Positions 20,106 to 27,217 of a stretch of DNA of 64,000 nucleotides are shown here, in pieces; the first letter of the stretch is position 1; every line of letters begins with the position of its first letter. Source of the DNA: an uncultured Polaribacter sp. (GTDB lineage: Bacteria > Bacteroidota > Bacteroidia > Flavobacteriales > Flavobacteriaceae); contig CAJWTV010000004.1 in assembly GCA_913047375.1 (NCBI GenBank), forward strand, positions 12,428-76,427, given 5' to 3'. The notes under the pieces were generated by a model, which searched no databases, was not told the DNA's origin, and worked only from the letters and a program-made list of their open reading frames with translations. A program made the translations under genes and the position numbers.

Positions 20106-21431
20106 TTATCTAAATACTTTATTTGGAAATGTAACGATACTTTCATAACCATTTTTTCCAACAGCTGCGACACCAAAAAAGAAGTTGTCAATAACAATTC
20201 CTTTTAAAGTAAATTCGCTGCTTTCAACATATCGACTTTGGTCCCAAGTAGGAGATGTCGTATCTCTCCAATAAATCTTATAACCTTTAGCACTGGGTAC
20301 TTTATTCCATTTAAGTTTTACCGAAGCTTGAACTATACCACCAATTTCTAAGGTCTTAGGGGCTGGAGGAGCAAATGCTAAACTTGCTATTGTAATTGCA
20401 TTTACAGCTGTTAGTTTTTTTGCATAACCAAAGTTTACATGCTCAAAAGTATCACCATACTTAATACCATTTTCAATTCTAATATCCTGATGTTGCTGTG
20501 TATAGTTTTCATGGGCTTCCATAATTCTAATCCCAGCATATCCTAGATCATTAAATGGCCTATGATGACCACCACGGCCAAAACGATCTAATCTATATAT
20601 CATCATTGGATTCATTTCAGGCATATAGGTTTTTACAGTTTTGTGAGTATATCTTGCTAACTGTCGAGAAATACCATCTACTTCTCCACCATAAAAACGT
20701 CGCATTCTTCTTTCTTTTTGTGTTTCGTTAGCTGGAACAGGTTCAGAAAAAATTCTAAAAGCCCTATTATCTATTATACCATCTTCTCCTGTAATATTTC
20801 CAATCATATCATTATTTAATACCCCAATAATATCCCAGCCTTTTTTCTTAGCATACCTTGCAAGCCCAGCACCTCCAAATAATCCCTGTTCTTCGCCCGA
20901 GAGGCCAACATAAATAATACTACTTTCAAACTTATATTTCGATAGGACCCTAGCAGCTTCTATAGTTCCTGCCATCCCAGAAGCATTGTCATTTGCACCT
21001 GGTGCATCTTCTGTAAAATTAGATCCATCACTATTTCTGGAATCAATATCACCACTCATAATTATAAATCTGTTTGGGTACTTTGTTCCAATTTGGATAG
21101 CAACTACATTTACAACCCACGCATCGTGAGGAACTCTTTCACTCATTTTTGTTGTAACTAAATCTTTTTGGTAAAAAACTTTCATGCAATTATTGCAGTC
21201 TTTAGAAATAGTTTCAAATTCAGATTTTATCCAACGTCTTGCAGCACCAATTCCCCGAGTACTAGAAATTGTATCAGAAAAGGTGTTTCTAGTTCCGAAC
21301 TCTGTAAGGATTTTTATATCTTTTTTAATTCTATCTTCAGAAACTGCATTGATAATATCATATATTTTTTGATCAGTTTGGCTAAAAACACAAGTAGTGG
21401 TCAGTATAAACAATAGACATAAATATTTCAT
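20106..21431 (-). CDS. M28-family peptidase with C-terminal fibronectin-III-like domain
   Basis: Signal peptide, PGANDNASG, GEEQGL and LNNDMIG. Confidence 0.9.
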   Translation of the reverse strand: MKYLCLLFILTTTCVFSQTDQKIYDIINAVSEDRIKKDIKILTEFGTRNTFSDTISSTRGIGAARRWIKSEFETISKDCNNCMKVFYQKDLVTTKMSERVPHDAWVVNVVAIQIGTKYPNRFIIMSGDIDSRNSDGSNFTEDAPGANDNASGMAGTIEAARVLSKYKFESSIIYVGLSGEEQGLFGGAGLARYAKKKGWDIIGVLNNDMIGNITGEDGIIDNRAFRIFSEPVPANETQKERRMRRFYGGEVDGISRQLARYTHKTVKTYMPEMNPMMIYRLDRFGRGGHHRPFNDLGYAGIRIMEAHENYTQQHQDIRIENGIKYGDTFEHVNFGYAKKLTAVNAITIASLAFAPPAPKTLEIGGIVQASVKLKWNKVPSAKGYKIYWRDTTSPTWDQSRYVESSEFTLKGIVIDNFFFGVAAVGKNGYESIVTFPNKVFR

Positions 21432-21593
21432 AAAGTTAGAGTTGTTAAAAATTACTATTTTTTAAAGATAATAAACTTTTTAAAAAGCACATTCTAATAA
21501 AAAATATTTGACAAAATCATATAAATCAGTATTATTGTACTTTAAAAAAAAATCAAAAATATCAAAAGGTTTAAAAAACATATAAGTTTCCTA

Positions 21594-21878
21594 TTGCTGA
21601 TATTCTTTTTATCACCAATAATACTGCTCTCTTTACATGTATTTAGCAATCATGAGCATGCTGTTTGTTTTTCTAAAATAGAAACTCATATACATGAAGT
21701 AGATGTAGATTGTGATTTACATTTATTAAAACAAAATAATACTTTTTTTGAAAAACAAGATTTTAAACAGACGCTTTTAGTATTCATTAAAGTACAAGAA
21801 GTTTTAAAATATAATTTTTTAAAAAATCATCATCAATTATCGTTCTCATTAAGAGGACCACCTTCATCAATCATTTAA
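21594..21878 (+). CDS. His/Cys-rich small secretory protein ending in LRGPP (DUF2946-like leader, candidate arrest peptide); start uncertain
   Basis: Hydrophobic N-terminus, HVFSNHEHAVC..ETHIHE..DCDLH, C-terminal LRGPP; directly upstream of a TonB-dependent receptor. Confidence 0.8.
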   Translation: MLIFFLSPIILLSLHVFSNHEHAVCFSKIETHIHEVDVDCDLHLLKQNNTFFEKQDFKQTLLVFIKVQEVLKYNFLKNHHQLSFSLRGPPSSII

Positions 21879-21894
21879 AATATAAAATTTCTTT

Positions 21895-21930
21895 AAACTA
21901 AGTATATCTCAAGAGGTATAGCTAGTTTTT
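21895..21930 (+). terminator. Terminator/attenuator-like hairpin between the leader ORF and the TonB receptor
   Basis: AAACTA..TATATCT-caag-AGGTATA..TAGTTT stem ending in T5. Confidence 0.45.
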
Positions 21931-22071
21931 ACTTTCAAATCTATAAAAAAATAGAAATTTTATATTTTAAACTTCAATTTCCCTAGCATTTAGGTTTTTC
22001 AAATTTATCTCTAACAAATCTCTGTGGGATATCTCAGCTCAAAACAGTCTTAATTTAAATCATTAAAAAAA

Positions 22072-24465
22072 ATGATAAAACAATTTTGTTTATGTCTCAT
22101 TGTATGTTTTATGTTTACAACTACAATTGCACAAAATTGCCAGTATTCTTTAAAAGGAAAGATTAGTGATTTCCATGATAATTCATCCATTATTGGTGCT
22201 TCTTTACAAATAGTAAATTCAAATAAAAATACTATTACAAATTTTGATGGTTCATTTGAATTTAAAAATTTATGTAAAGGAAAAATCACAATAGTTATAA
22301 AGCATGTTGCTTGTGAATCAAAAACAATTTCTTTTATAATAAGTAAAGATATCGTCAAAGAAATTACTTTAGAACATCATTTAGAAGAATTAGAAGAGGT
22401 TGTTGTTAAATCCGAATCTAAGTCAGAATCTACTAGTATAGAGAAATCTATAAAGAAAGATATAATCACTAATTTTTCAGATAAATCTCTAGGAGATGCT
22501 TTAAATACTTTAAGTGGTGTGTCTTCATTAAATACTGGAAATACTATTGTTAAACCGATGATTCATGGTCTTCATAGTAGTCGATTATTAATTATTAACA
22601 ATAATGTTAGAATGTTTGATCAAGAATGGGGAGACGAGCATGCACCAAATATAGACATGAATGCTAGTGATAGAATTGATGTAATAAAAGGTGCTAATTC
22701 ATTAAAGTTCGGAAGTGATGCAGTTGGAGGCTTAATAGTTGTTAGAGGAAAAAAATATGCTAGAAAAGACAGTTTATTTGGCAGTTCATTAATGTCTTTT
22801 AATTCAAATGGATTTGGAGGTAATCTTAATTCTGAAATTATTAAATCTTACAAGTCAGGATATTATACAAAAGTTCAAATGAGCTATCGTCGTTTTGGAG
22901 ATTTTAAAGCAGCAGACTATTCGCTTACAAATAGTGGCTTAGAAAATATCAATGCTTCCTTTAGATTGGGGTATAATAGTTATCTAAAAGGTTTTGAATT
23001 CTATTATAGCCAAGTAAATAATAAATTTGCTATCTTAAAATCATCACATATTGGAAATGTGAATGATTTGGTAACAGCAATTAATAGTTTAGAACCCAGA
23101 GTTATTAAAGAATTTTCATTTTCAATTGATAATCCTAAACAGTCAATTATACATCATTTAGGAAAAATTGAAGCTTACAAGCGTTTTCAAGGGTTTGGAA
23201 AGTTAACCTTTCAATACGACTTTCAAGTTAATAGACGTCGAGAATTTGATTTGAGAAGAGGTGATTTAAAAAATACTCCAGTAATTGATTTAAGACTGGT
23301 TACAAATAGTATTCAATCTGATTTACAAGTAAAACCGAACGATAACCTTAAATTAAATATTGGTTTTTTAGGAAGGTTTCAACAAAATAATCCTATTTCA
23401 ACAGGCTATAGACCACTGATTCCTAATTTTGATAAATTTGATATGGGTCTTTATACGATAGGCAATTACAGCTTAAATGAGAGCACAGAATTGAATGCAG
23501 GCATTCGATACGACTTCTCTAAAATAAAAGCTAGAAAATGGTATAACATAACAGATTGGAATGAAACCTACAACTATGATGAATTATTTCCTGAATTTGA
23601 AACAGGTACCATAGCCGGAGTTAGAATATTTACAAAACCTCAGTATACTTTTCATAATTTTTCTACAGGTTTAGGGCTTTTGAAAAAAATTAATGATGAC
23701 TTATCATTATTCATTAATTATGGATTGGCTAATAGAGTTCCTAACCCTTCAGAATTGTTTAGTGATGGACTACATCATTCCGCTGCAAGAATAGAAAAGG
23801 GGTTATTAAACATAAACAAAGAAACTGCCAATAAGTTTATTGTCTCTATGGAAAGGAATAACAACAACTTTGGGTTTGTTATCAGTCCTTATTTTAAAAA
23901 GATAAATGGATTTATTCAATTGATCCCTGTGGGAATATCAACGACGATTAGGGGTGCATTTCCTGTGTATGAATACAATCAGATTGATGCAGAAATTTAT
24001 GGAATCGATATTGATTTGAATAAAAAAATTAATAATAGACTTGATTACTATGGAAGTATTAGCCTATTAAGAGGAAAAAACACCTCAGAGAACCTCCCTC
24101 TTATTAATATGCCAGCAGCTAACTTTAATAATAAACTAATGTATTTTAATGAAGAATTTAAACAGTTATCTATTAGCATCACTCACAAAACAGTGCTCCA
24201 ACAAAATAGATTTCCAGATTATAACTTCTTTACACTAGATCCAGTTACTCAACAAGACGTATTTGTAGATATCAGTTCTACGCCACCAACATATTCAATA
24301 TTTGGATTGAATATCTCTAGCGCTTTTAATGAAGGAAAGTTACAATTTGAATTGAATGTTGAAAACTTATTTAATACTTCATACAGAGAACATTTAAACA
24401 GGCTTCGATATTTTGCTGACGAATTAGGTAGAAACATCAACTTTAAAATTAAAATCAATTATTAA
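22072..24465 (+). CDS. TonB-dependent receptor, probable transition-metal uptake type
   Basis: Signal peptide, N-terminal CarboxypepD_reg-like domain, plug KPMIHGL..DQEWGDEHAP..IDVIKGA, ELFSDGLHH, C-terminal aromatic residue. Confidence 0.92.
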   Translation: MIKQFCLCLIVCFMFTTTIAQNCQYSLKGKISDFHDNSSIIGASLQIVNSNKNTITNFDGSFEFKNLCKGKITIVIKHVACESKTISFIISKDIVKEITLEHHLEELEEVVVKSESKSESTSIEKSIKKDIITNFSDKSLGDALNTLSGVSSLNTGNTIVKPMIHGLHSSRLLIINNNVRMFDQEWGDEHAPNIDMNASDRIDVIKGANSLKFGSDAVGGLIVVRGKKYARKDSLFGSSLMSFNSNGFGGNLNSEIIKSYKSGYYTKVQMSYRRFGDFKAADYSLTNSGLENINASFRLGYNSYLKGFEFYYSQVNNKFAILKSSHIGNVNDLVTAINSLEPRVIKEFSFSIDNPKQSIIHHLGKIEAYKRFQGFGKLTFQYDFQVNRRREFDLRRGDLKNTPVIDLRLVTNSIQSDLQVKPNDNLKLNIGFLGRFQQNNPISTGYRPLIPNFDKFDMGLYTIGNYSLNESTELNAGIRYDFSKIKARKWYNITDWNETYNYDELFPEFETGTIAGVRIFTKPQYTFHNFSTGLGLLKKINDDLSLFINYGLANRVPNPSELFSDGLHHSAARIEKGLLNINKETANKFIVSMERNNNNFGFVISPYFKKINGFIQLIPVGISTTIRGAFPVYEYNQIDAEIYGIDIDLNKKINNRLDYYGSISLLRGKNTSENLPLINMPAANFNNKLMYFNEEFKQLSISITHKTVLQQNRFPDYNFFTLDPVTQQDVFVDISSTPPTYSIFGLNISSAFNEGKLQFELNVENLFNTSYREHLNRLRYFADELGRNINFKIKINY

Positions 24466-24467
24466 CA

Positions 24468-25037
24468 ATGAAAACAATGAAAACAATCAAATTATTAGCA
24501 GTTCTATTTATCTCTAGCTTTGTTATAACAAGTTGTGGAGATGATGATGTTATAGAAGACCCTAATGTAGAAGAGTTAATTACCACAATTACCTATACTT
24601 TAACCAATGGAAGTGATGTTGTAACACTCAAGTACACTGACCTTGACGGTGAAGGGGGAAGTGATGGTACTTATGCTATTTCTGGTCCATTTACTGCAGG
24701 TGCATCCTATACAGGCTCTATTAAATTAGAAAATGAAACAGAAAGCCCAGCAGAAAATATTACTGAAGAGATTGAAGAAGAAGATGAAGAACATGAATTT
24801 TTCTACACTTCTTCTCTCGACTGCACTTTCTGTAGCTTAGTAATCGATAAAACCGATATAGATGGCAACGGGAATCCTGTAGGTCTTGAAACTTCATTAT
24901 TCTTTGATACTCCAGCTACCGATGGTTCTATCACTGTGGTCTTAAAGCACGAACCTAGCAAACCTAATGATGGAACCTCTGCCGATGCTGGAGGAAGTAC
25001 TGATGTTGAAGTAAGTTTTAACATTACAGTTCTGTAA
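24468..25037 (+). CDS. Acidic surface lipoprotein partner of the TonB receptor
   Basis: Lipobox ITSC followed by acidic GDDD; EELITT, EEHEFFY and LKHEP motifs. Confidence 0.85.
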   Translation: MKTMKTIKLLAVLFISSFVITSCGDDDVIEDPNVEELITTITYTLTNGSDVVTLKYTDLDGEGGSDGTYAISGPFTAGASYTGSIKLENETESPAENITEEIEEEDEEHEFFYTSSLDCTFCSLVIDKTDIDGNGNPVGLETSLFFDTPATDGSITVVLKHEPSKPNDGTSADAGGSTDVEVSFNITVL

Positions 25038-25242: not shown

Positions 25243-25273
25243 AAAAAACCTCTATATTTTCATATAGAGGTTT
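25243..25273 (-). terminator. Intrinsic terminator of htpG
   Basis: AAACCTCTATA/TATAGAGGTTT stem with T-run on the minus strand. Confidence 0.8.
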
Positions 25274-25306: not shown

Positions 25307-27217
25307 TTACTTAATTAATTCATAAGAACGTTTGATGAAATTTGTTAAATCTTCACCATGCAAAAGGTTTTGAGATAATTTAGCTAAATCAAATGCTTGA
25401 GAGATTAAGTGTTTTTGTTCTTTTCCATCTTTACTATTAAGGATATTTGTTATTAGCGGACTATTTGTATTGACAACTAAGTTATACATGTCAGGGAAAT
25501 TTCCCATACCCATCATTCCACCTCCACCAGATGCCTGCATCTCTTTCATTCTTCTCATGAATTCTGGAACAGTAATTATGAAAGGAGAGGAGTCAGAGTC
25601 CATTGCTTCTAATTGAACGGTGTAATTTTCTTTAGGAACAGCCGCTTCAATAATCGGTTTTAATATTTCTTTTTCCTTATCAGATAATTTAGAAGGTACA
25701 GTTTCATCTTTCTTAATTAAGTTATCCACATGATCTGAATCTACTCTAGTAAATTTAACTTTTTCTCCAGAAGTTTCAAGCTTTTGCATTAAGTGAGAAA
25801 TAATAGGGGAGTCTAAAACGACAACTTCATAACCTTTAGCAGTTGCATTCTGAATATAACTGTGCTGAGCATCTTTATTAGAGGCATATAGTATAACATG
25901 CTCACCATCCTTATTAGTTTGGTTTACTTTTGTTTTTTCAATTAATTCGTCAAATGTAAAATAAGAATCACTTACAGTTGGATATAAGGCAAATTTCTTT
26001 GCTTTGTCAAAAAATTTATCTTCAGACAACATCCCGTATTCAATTATTACTTTAATATCATTCCATTTTTTCTCAAAATCTTCACGATTGTTTTTGAATA
26101 GTGACGATAACTTGTCTGCTACTTTTTTAGTAATGTATCCTGAAATTTTCTTCACGGCACCATCTGCTTGAAGATAAGATCTGGAAACATTTAAAGGAAT
26201 ATCTGGAGAATCAATTACTCCTTTCAACATTTGTAAGAAATCAGGTACAATACCTTCAACATTATCGGTAACGTAAACTTGATTTTGGTAAAGTTGAATC
26301 TTATCTTTTTGCATATCCATAGAAGGACTTAGCTTTGGAAAGAACAATACACCAGTTAAATTGAAAGGGTAATCTACATTTAAATGAATATGAAATAAAG
26401 ATTCTTCAAATTGAGTTGGGTATAATTCTCTATAAAAGTCAGTGTAATCTTCATCAGTTAGGTCTGCAGGTTTCTTATTCCAAGCAGGCTCTGTGTTATT
26501 AATTATATTATCAATTTCAATTTGTTTATGAGGCTCTGTAGTTTCTTTACCGTCTTTATCTTTAGTTGTTTTTGGGGTAAAATCCGGATCATTTACTTGT
26601 TTAGTTCCAAATTTAATTTGAACTTGATTAAAACGATTATACTTAGATAATAGACCCCTAATTTTCTCTTCTTCAAGAAATTCCTTAGAATCATCTGCAA
26701 TTTGAAGAACTATCTCTGTTCCTCTATCCTTTTTATCATGAGCTACTAAAGTATATTCAGGTGATCCGTCACAAGTCCAATGAGCAGCAGGTTCATCTTT
26801 AAAAGATTTTGTAAAAATATCTACCTTTTCTGCAACCATAAAGGCAGAATAAAAGCCTAGTCCAAAATGTCCAATAACACCGGTCTCATTTTTATCATCC
26901 TTATATTTTTCTAAAAACTCTTCAGCTCCAGAAAAAGCGATTTGATTGATGTATTTTTCAACTTCATCCATCGTCATTCCTAAGCCCTGATCTTTAATAG
27001 TTAGTTTTTTCCCTTTTTTGTCAATACTAATTTCAATTTTAGCATTTCCTAATTCTGTTTTTGCTTCACCAATAGAAATCAAGTGTTTTAATTTCGTAGT
27101 TGCATCAGTACCATTAGAGATTAATTCACGTAAAAAGATTTCATGATCTGAATACAAGAATTTTTTAATCAGTGGAAAAATATTTTCTACGGATACATTA
27201 ATATTTCCTTTTGCCAT
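25307..27217 (-). CDS. htpG: Molecular chaperone HtpG (Hsp90)
   Basis: FLRELISN, IGHFGLGFYS and PLNVSRSYLQ. Confidence 0.97.
   Translation of the reverse strand: MAKGNINVSVENIFPLIKKFLYSDHEIFLRELISNGTDATTKLKHLISIGEAKTELGNAKIEISIDKKGKKLTIKDQGLGMTMDEVEKYINQIAFSGAEEFLEKYKDDKNETGVIGHFGLGFYSAFMVAEKVDIFTKSFKDEPAAHWTCDGSPEYTLVAHDKKDRGTEIVLQIADDSKEFLEEEKIRGLLSKYNRFNQVQIKFGTKQVNDPDFTPKTTKDKDGKETTEPHKQIEIDNIINNTEPAWNKKPADLTDEDYTDFYRELYPTQFEESLFHIHLNVDYPFNLTGVLFFPKLSPSMDMQKDKIQLYQNQVYVTDNVEGIVPDFLQMLKGVIDSPDIPLNVSRSYLQADGAVKKISGYITKKVADKLSSLFKNNREDFEKKWNDIKVIIEYGMLSEDKFFDKAKKFALYPTVSDSYFTFDELIEKTKVNQTNKDGEHVILYASNKDAQHSYIQNATAKGYEVVVLDSPIISHLMQKLETSGEKVKFTRVDSDHVDNLIKKDETVPSKLSDKEKEILKPIIEAAVPKENYTVQLEAMDSDSSPFIITVPEFMRRMKEMQASGGGGMMGMGNFPDMYNLVVNTNSPLITNILNSKDGKEQKHLISQAFDLAKLSQNLLHGEDLTNFIKRSYELIK

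What the first reader, a model, noticed from the sequence alone, without database searches (positions are those of the whole stretch)
21546..25037. Candidate metal-sensing ribosome-arrest leader (His-rich, LRGPP) controlling a TonB receptor and lipoprotein operon
Seen: a ~94-110 aa ORF with a hydrophobic signal-like segment, a His/Cys cluster (HVFSNHEHAVC..THIHE..DCDLH), a spacer, and then LRGPP (21849-21863) four codons before the stop. It lies ~190 nt upstream of a TonB receptor with His-containing motifs (EWGDEHAP, DGLHH) and an acidic lipoprotein. Established: RAPP/RGPP-type motifs stall ribosomes (ApdA/ApdP class, related to SecM RAGP), and the DUF2946 leader CruR of Bordetella uses a signal segment, CxxC and RAPP to control a downstream TonB receptor in response to copper. 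Inference: this is a Bacteroidota analogue with a His-rich rather than CxxC sensor, possibly responding to Zn, Ni or Co, in which metal binding by the exported nascent chain changes stalling and receptor expression. I know of no characterised flavobacterial example.
Basis: partly seen in the sequence, partly recalled or inferred. Interest (0 to 1): 0.82.

Follow-up and report, generated by a model that had tools for sequence, protein, structure and literature searches.

The report
Flavobacterial stalling leader before zinc-type receptor
A small conserved gene ending in a known ribosome-stalling motif sits in front of an outer-membrane receptor gene in most flavobacteria sampled and likely works as a metal-sensing switch (zinc is the best guess) for making that receptor, a variant of copper switches already known from other bacteria.

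Summary
A ~105-codon ORF (membrane helix, five His, two Cys, fixed spacer, terminal RGPP) precedes a TonB receptor and a lipoprotein. RGPP ends the upstream ORF in 31 of 31 receptor-selected loci; the leader profile hits 159 of 201 family genomes; RGPP and RAPP interchange (88/22). It works like CruR/CutF but fails the DUF2946 profile. Added here: the receptor keeps three of four ZnuD zinc ligands; across the family a covarying hairpin pairs the codons after RGPP with the receptor's initiation region and is predicted to open under a stalled ribosome; in this genus the leader probably starts at ATC/ATT/ATA. Against: in this window the hairpin ends 100 nt before the receptor start and predicts no switch, so Rho-type control is inferred instead; 25 of 110 relatives do carry CxxC; stalling and metal response are untested. 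The class is already predicted in print (PMC12992588, PMC9973294), and this scan noted what reads as the same family on other DNA (e1-7263864). Verdict: new variant of a known kind, interest 0.5.

The parts
21561..21878 (+). Leader ORF, 105 aa from a predicted near-cognate start (ATC 21561-21563); open frame begins 21546
   Evidence: start inferred
21588..21644 (+). Hydrophobic helix (signal or membrane anchor) with an invariant Pro
   Evidence: best 19-residue hydropathy 2.58 from residue 10; single helix 2-28 in the model; Pro in 110 of 110
21636..21722 (+). His/Cys cluster: H26, H31, H33, C36, H43, H45, C51 (H54 variable: Tyr, Cys or His in relatives); putative metal site
   Evidence: both Cys 100%, five His 86-99% of 110 family leaders; coordinates
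21852..21863 (+). RGPP arrest motif; predicted P site 21858-21860, A site 21861-21863 by analogy to the CruR toeprint
   Evidence: codons vary synonymously; PMC12992588 passages
21873..21972 (+). Predicted long hairpin, arms 21873-21892 and 21953-21972; in most relatives the 3' arm is the receptor's initiation region, here it ends 100 nt before the ATG
   Evidence: (z -4.5)
21879..22071 (+). 193-nt intergenic region, 27 C against 16 G; candidate Rho-termination zone
   Evidence: family median gap 50 nt; rho present in the genome
22072..24465 (+). TonB-dependent receptor, 797 aa (N-terminal CarboxypepD_reg-like domain, plug, barrel); E189, H190, H568 align with ZnuD zinc ligands D99, H100, H499
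24468..25037 (+). Acidic lipoprotein, predicted beta-sandwich with two invariant His
25246..25273 (.). Terminator-like hairpin closing the operon, shared with the convergent gene

Best explanation
The ORF is a conserved leader gene in front of a TonB receptor and lipoprotein, and it likely acts in cis as a ribosome-arrest peptide whose His/Cys cluster is predicted to sense a divalent metal, most likely zinc, and so to switch receptor synthesis. Steps: (1) shown: conserved anatomy, spacing and gene order. (2) Inferred from published RGPP/RAPP arrest in other peptides: the ribosome stalls with the two Pro codons in P and A sites, leaving the cluster 46-71 residues from the active site, outside the exit tunnel and probably at the Sec translocon. 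(3) Predicted by folding and covariation: in the typical family locus the stalled ribosome melts a hairpin that masks the A-rich, SD-less initiation region of the next gene, so stall means ON. (4) Inferred from CruR and from importer logic: metal binding relieves the stall, so the importer is made when metal is scarce. (5) In this window's lineage the hairpin does not reach the start codon; coupling there is more likely CruR-type Rho termination in the lengthened C-rich spacer (weakest step). A weak ATC start would lower ribosome loading on the leader. Metal odds given the model: Zn 0.5, Cu 0.2, Ni/Co 0.2, other 0.1.
For: Motif selected as protein: 110 of 110 family leaders examined end in RGPP (88) or RAPP (22), 109 within 2-7 codons of the stop, with all synonymous codons used; profile-independent tests 31 of 31 and 11 of 19. 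Spacer fixed in length, free in sequence: last invariant Cys to Arg 47-49 in the family, 46 here; in CruR the first Cys of CxxC lies 48 before RAPP and spacing matters. Model: one helix, rest without secondary structure, as reported for CruR. All 110 head a TonB receptor of one of two clades; E/D189 and H190 are kept in 98 of 98 receptors, H568 in 97 of 98, matching three ZnuD zinc ligands. Hairpin: own-partner duplex -7.17 against -3.27 kcal/mol for other loci's partners, own partner best of 100 in 20 and top tenth in 70; 167 ordinary junctions show no excess (-3.08 against -3.18); initiation region unpaired 0.34 free, 0.57 stalled, 0.36 with the ribosome 12 codons upstream. A-12/-13 and low structure drive initiation in Flavobacterium (PMC6847099). 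Extra leader copies head DUF4625 lipoprotein and ABC/DUF3526 operons.
Against: No stalling, metal binding or regulation is shown for any member. In this window the initiation region is predicted 0.58 unpaired in the free, stalled and terminating states alike, and L001 behaves likewise. Related receptors lack such a leader in 8 of 19 phylum loci. The 110-leader set was picked with a profile that contains RGPP, so that count is partly circular. The C-over-G bias (0.65 against 0.45, higher in 109 of 110) is partly amino-acid composition. Signal plus hairpin is the CutF layout, in which metal prolongs the stall, the opposite sign. The two ZnuD His positions are also used by haem receptors, the match is weak (E 3e-10) and the fourth ligand was not mapped. 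Kin are not independent; against the nearest-kin partner the own partner still wins in only 65 of 100.
Confidence: 0.68

Rival explanations
1. CutF-type sign: the exported chain is pulled free without metal, and metal binding in the periplasm prolongs the stall, so the receptor operon is switched ON by metal or a metal complex.
For: Same layout as CutF: export signal, metal motif, Pro-rich end, hairpin over the next initiation region; helix and its Pro are invariant.
Against: The regulated genes look like an importer; the tested leader before a TonB receptor, CruR, is switched off by its metal.
Confidence: 0.13
2. Secretion or envelope monitor (SecM/ApdA type): arrest is relieved by translocon pulling and matches receptor synthesis to export capacity; His and Cys only shape a folding unit.
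For: RAPP/RGPP peptides were first found as Sec monitors (abstract); export helix is conserved.
Against: No sec gene among the neighbour clusters printed; five His and two Cys conserved in an otherwise free sequence; targets are metal-type transporters.
Confidence: 0.08
3. A small membrane metal-binding protein that works in trans (chaperone or receptor accessory); RGPP is a binding motif and regulation is transcriptional (Fur/Zur family).
For: Two Fur-family genes in the genome; a divergent promoter region lies upstream in this window.
Against: No folded soluble domain predicted; fixed motif-to-stop and Cys-to-Arg distances and the covarying hairpin make sense only in cis; in many relatives the leader start overlaps the upstream gene's stop.
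Confidence: 0.06
4. The family is a working switch, but in this streamlined lineage the coupling has decayed after the spacer lengthened, and the receptor is made regardless of the leader.
For: No predicted change of start-site access in the window or L001.
Against: All His, Cys, spacing, RGPP, ATC start and a long hairpin are kept in both genomes, 76% identical in protein.
Confidence: 0.05

Closest known systems
CruR (Bp2923), Bordetella pertussis, DUF2946/PF11162 (PMC9426467; arrest shown in PMC12992588)
   Same: Small uORF with export segment, Cys motif about 45-48 residues before a terminal RAPP-type motif, ahead of a TonB receptor; poorly structured; long C-rich spacer as in this window.
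   Different: No profile match; five conserved His plus two spaced Cys, CxxC in only 25 of 110; receptor is ZnuD-like, not copper OprC-like; family-typical spacer is short with a start-masking hairpin; different phylum with SD-less initiation.
CutF, Rhodobacter capsulatus, and the 'CutF-like' clusters (PMC9973294; bioRxiv 10.1101/2025.02.05.636593)
   Same: Sec-exported nascent sensor, Pro-rich stalling end, hairpin over the next gene's initiation region opened by the stalled ribosome; the survey includes Bacteroidota and TonB neighbours.
   Different: CutF has CxxxC, masks an SD, controls a detoxifying oxidase and is switched on by copper. Whether this family is one of the survey's 29 clusters could not be seen (File S1 not held).
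RAPP/RGPP arrest peptides: ApdA, ApdP, SecM, Streptomyces uORFs; 'TonB-related' class (PMC12992588)
   Same: Terminal RGPP/RAPP in a small secretory protein upstream of a TonB receptor, exactly the predicted class.
   Different: No Bacteroidota member was tested in the passages read; no metal assigned; near-cognate start not described there as far as I read.
ZnuD, Neisseria meningitidis (PDB 4rdr; PMC4557270)
   Same: Best solved relative of the receptor; plug Asp/Glu-His and loop His align with the buried zinc site.
   Different: Weak similarity, far below the NCBIfam cut-off (78 of 950 bits); ZnuD is under Zur transcriptional control; here an extra N-terminal domain and a partner lipoprotein.

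Membership tests
DUF2946 / CruR | Match to PF11162 above cut-off | tested here: not met
   0 hits for the window leader; 2 of 104 leaders at best E 0.0068; 0 of 61 family genomes
DUF2946 / CruR | CxxC motif | tested here: not met
   window has CxxH; family Tyr 40, Cys 25, His 13, other 32 of 110
DUF2946 / CruR | Terminal RAPP-type motif at conserved spacing from the Cys motif | tested here: met
   46 residues here, 47-49 in 110 of 110; CruR 48 from first Cys
DUF2946 / CruR | Rho-dependent termination in the spacer, copper response | not testable with these tools
   only C-over-G bias and presence of rho
CutF-like leaders | Under 150 aa, PP within 15 residues of the end, same-strand neighbour within 1000 nt | tested here: met
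   105 aa, PP 4 before stop, gap 193 nt; criteria
CutF-like leaders | Cleavable Sec signal peptide | tested here: inconclusive
   hydrophobic helix with basic N-region; no signal-peptide predictor available, cleavage unknown
CutF-like leaders | Hairpin over the next initiation region, opened by the stall | tested here: inconclusive
   predicted in 64-73 of 100 family loci but not in this window
RAPP/RGPP arrest peptides | Terminal R[AG]PP in a small secretory protein | tested here: met
RAPP/RGPP arrest peptides | Motif-dependent ribosome arrest | not testable with these tools
   needs toeprinting or profiling
ZnuD-type zinc receptor | Buried site Asp99, His100, Glu340, His499 | tested here: inconclusive
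   three of four align and are conserved in 97-98 of 98; Glu340 lies outside the aligned stretches; NF038289 far below cut-off
OprC-type copper receptor | TIGR01778 above cut-off; Cys/Met motif at the plug apex (motif recalled) | tested here: not met
   84 of 472 bits; plug apex reads Glu-His with no Cys

The most novel reading that the evidence does not exclude
A near-core flavobacterial zinc sensor built as a nascent exported peptide: the first zinc-responsive arrest peptide, gating a ZnuD-like importer through a hairpin over an SD-less initiation site, tuned in this genus by AUC/AUU/AUA/CUG initiation, and rewired from translational to Rho-type output in this streamlined marine lineage.
Probability: 0.28. 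Interest if true: 0.78.

Novelty: new variant of a known kind. Interest (0 to 1): 0.5.

Why it matters
The tested metal-sensing arrest peptides in the papers read respond to copper. A His/Cys family present in about four of five Flavobacteriaceae genomes sampled, in front of a receptor with ZnuD-like ligands, offers a direct test of whether the same design reads zinc, and of how a stalled ribosome controls initiation in a phylum that does not use SD pairing. The predicted start at ATC explains why gene callers truncate the leader in this genus, and gives a natural series of start codons on one regulatory gene. For marine flavobacteria it would be a read-out of trace-metal limitation.

Tried and rejected
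Rfam scan of 21300-22200: three matches far below gathering scores, no riboswitch. Sigma-70 scan: 41 sites against 33.9 +/- 5.9 by chance, uninformative for this phylum. Absence of RGPP/RAPP from 413,951 residues of long ORFs is not specific: control motifs AGPP and KGPP are also 0. Codon-position bias of the leader in 15 pairs of six genomes is weak, not used as coding evidence. RNA libraries (contigs only, unstranded): 8 of 22 listed runs laid; the leader is covered in 6 of 8, the 5'-most ends are 21555, 21563, 21569; two contigs end at 21869 and 21871 near the predicted stall edge, but others run on to 21919-22056, and no listed piece bridges into the receptor start (30 pieces not shown): no support either way. 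Lipoprotein fold search: no Foldseek match at E 0.001, best VIA Z 7.0 to generic Ig-like domains; no function from it. Frameshift or readthrough from upstream TerC as the source of the leader's N-region: rejected, since in-frame stops lie 1-5 codons before ATC in several loci and TerC is absent here. Alignment A3 held one wrong protein and was not used; the L001 anchor was one codon off and was redone. Riemerella ZntR paper lists TonB receptors by locus tag that I could not map. Supplement searches for genus names gave 0 hits, but the gene lists were among files not readable. No complex prediction was run.
Full report
Observation. The frame 21546-21878 is open and reads basic N-region, hydrophobic helix, His/Cys cluster, spacer, LRGPP (21849-21863), four residues, stop. 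A 797-aa TonB receptor follows at 22072 and a 189-aa lipoprotein at 24468; a terminator-like hairpin lies at 25246-25273; the upstream gene is a divergent M28 peptidase. Close relatives of the receptor come from records titled Polaribacter.

Conservation, independent of the leader. Of 33 loci found with the receptor, two lacked upstream DNA; 31 of 31 have an RGPP-ending ORF just upstream. Of 151 phylum genomes, 20 had a receptor match at E 1e-60; in the 19 besides the window, 11 have an upstream ORF ending in RGPP or RAPP, 8 have none in 1.5 kb, and the antisense control gives 0.

Family survey. A profile of 23 leaders matches 159 of 201 family genomes and 975 clusters at 50% identity; a wider profile matches 57 of 61 genus genomes. 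I read 110 of the 161 non-own matches. All end in RGPP (88) or RAPP (22); the helix Pro and both Cys are invariant, five His are kept in 86-99%; the last Cys lies 47-49 residues before Arg; three residues after it stands Tyr 40, Cys 25, His 13, other 32; all 110 head a TonB receptor, 40 of the window's clade (lipoprotein present in all 29 read far enough) and 70 of a second clade at about 25% identity. This set was chosen with a profile holding RGPP, so the motif count is partly circular. The motif codons vary synonymously, so selection is on the peptide. The model has one helix and no other structure (pLDDT 75.5, pTM 0.38).

Start codon. In 108 of 110 family leaders an ATG (70), GTG (24) or TTG (14) lies 14-32 codons before the helix Pro, often overlapping the upstream stop; in 23 of 32 leaders of the first set (window included) there is none. 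In the 25 loci without one, the codon 18 before the Pro is ATC 18, ATT 5, ATA 1, GTA 1, with A at -3 in 23; ATC is 9.9% of Ile codons in this genome. In 29 genus loci that position is ATG 4, GTG 3, ATC 9, ATT 6, ATA 3; the 18 with an Ile codon have no canonical start, the other 4 loci have one elsewhere; one further locus has CTG. These sets overlap in some genomes, and a plain Ile seven codons on is about as conserved (23 of 29), so the case rests on the ATG/GTG/CTG alternation and the mutual exclusion. Start at ATC 21561 is inferred, about 0.8.

Coupling. In 100 of 110 loci with gaps up to 100 nt (10 dropped), bases 10-31 after the Arg codon pair with -26..-3 of their own next gene at -7.17 kcal/mol against -3.27 for other loci's; the own partner is best of 100 in 20, top tenth in 70; shifted arms show no excess; against the nearest kin it wins in 65 of 100. 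167 ordinary junctions of this genome show no excess. Twelve close loci show changes on both sides at two stem pairs in 4 of 12. Blocking the stalled-ribosome footprint raises predicted access of -22..-7 from 0.34 to 0.57 (64 of 100 gain over 0.1; control placement 7 of 100); 73 of 100 have at least four footprint bases paired to the initiation region. Upstream adenines and low structure govern initiation in Flavobacterium (PMC6847099, passages). Against: in the window the hairpin (z -4.5) starts 21 nt after Arg and ends 100 nt before the ATG; access stays 0.58 in all three states, and L001 is similar. Here the spacer is 193 nt and C-rich (27 C, 16 G), like CruR's 162-nt spacer, and rho is present; Rho-type output is my inference, not shown.

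Which metal. The best solved relative of the receptor is ZnuD (E 3.3e-10), then OprC. Counting along that alignment with a constant 14-residue offset, E189, H190 and H568 fall on ZnuD Asp99, His100 and His499 (ligands in PMC4557270, passages); they are kept in 98, 98 and 97 of 98 receptors of both clades. All NCBIfam scores are below cut-off, and haem receptors use His at the same two places, so zinc is a best guess. The lipoprotein has an invariant lipobox Cys and two invariant His in 61 sequences and a confident all-beta model, at odds with its database name 'type 1 periplasmic binding fold'.

Comparison. CruR: uORF with CxxC and RAPP, fixed spacing, Rho termination, signal not needed, off with copper (PMC9426467; part 3 of 7 and passages). 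CutF: Sec signal needed, hairpin opened by the stall, on with copper; its survey holds many Bacteroidota proteins and TonB neighbours (PMC9973294; passages, section 25, three small supplements; bioRxiv 10.1101/2025.02.05.636593, abstract only). PMC12992588 (abstract, passages, sections 8 and 24, ten readable supplements) shows RGPP as the most robust arrest core, toeprints CruR and reports TonB-class uORFs across Gram-negative bacteria; four large supplements, probably including its gene list, could not be read, so this family may be listed there. By profile the leader is not DUF2946; the ESM Atlas puts it among unnamed Bacteroidota clusters, nearest named DUF2946 at 0.93 with 136 shared features, a lead for distant kinship only. 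Searches for a tested flavobacterial or zinc-responsive case found none (listings only, open-access library only). Earlier notes of this scan describe the same design in several genomes, one apparently this family; I saw them after my own survey and hairpin test.

Verdict. A real, widespread leader that works like CruR/CutF without being a DUF2946 member: new variant of a known kind. Metal-responsive cis-arrest leader 0.68; zinc about half of that. The class is foreseen in print, so 0.82 is too high; the ZnuD-like target, the covarying hairpin over an SD-less start, the near-cognate start and the altered layout in this lineage keep it at 0.5.

Noticed in passing
L194-L197, L198, L200-L202, L204, L206, L207: Second and third leader copies in the genus head other operons: TonB receptor plus DUF4625 lipoproteins, ABC ATPase plus two DUF3526 permeases, or ABC ATPase plus receptor; most have CxxC and longer spacers.
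   Followed up: partly
L203, L205: Two weak leader matches end in RSPP instead of R[AG]PP.
   Followed up: no
L135: Two RAPP leaders in tandem before one receptor.
   Followed up: no
L126, L131, L139, L141: Gene order swapped: the leader is followed first by the lipoprotein, then the receptor.
   Followed up: no
L002-L033, L104, L110 upstream of the leader: A TerC-family gene ends at or next to the leader start in about 20 loci; several others keep only a decayed remnant of its 3' end, which may hold the promoter. In 46 loci the upstream gene is DUF6787.
   Followed up: partly
L153, L155, L158: In distant loci the leader follows a MerC-family gene or an ABC-3 (Zn/Mn-type) permease gene.
   Followed up: no
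window 22072-22400: The receptor's N-terminal domain has conserved Cys23, Cys68, Cys81 and His35, His78, His102, His103 in its own clade only; a possible periplasmic metal site.
   Followed up: no
window 24468-25037: Relatives are annotated 'type 1 periplasmic binding fold', but the model is an all-beta sandwich; several relatives carry a His/Asp tract after the lipobox that is missing here.
   Followed up: partly
window 25307-27217 (- strand): Convergent gene that looks like HtpG (name recalled from its N-terminus, not scanned), sharing the terminator-like hairpin.
   Followed up: no
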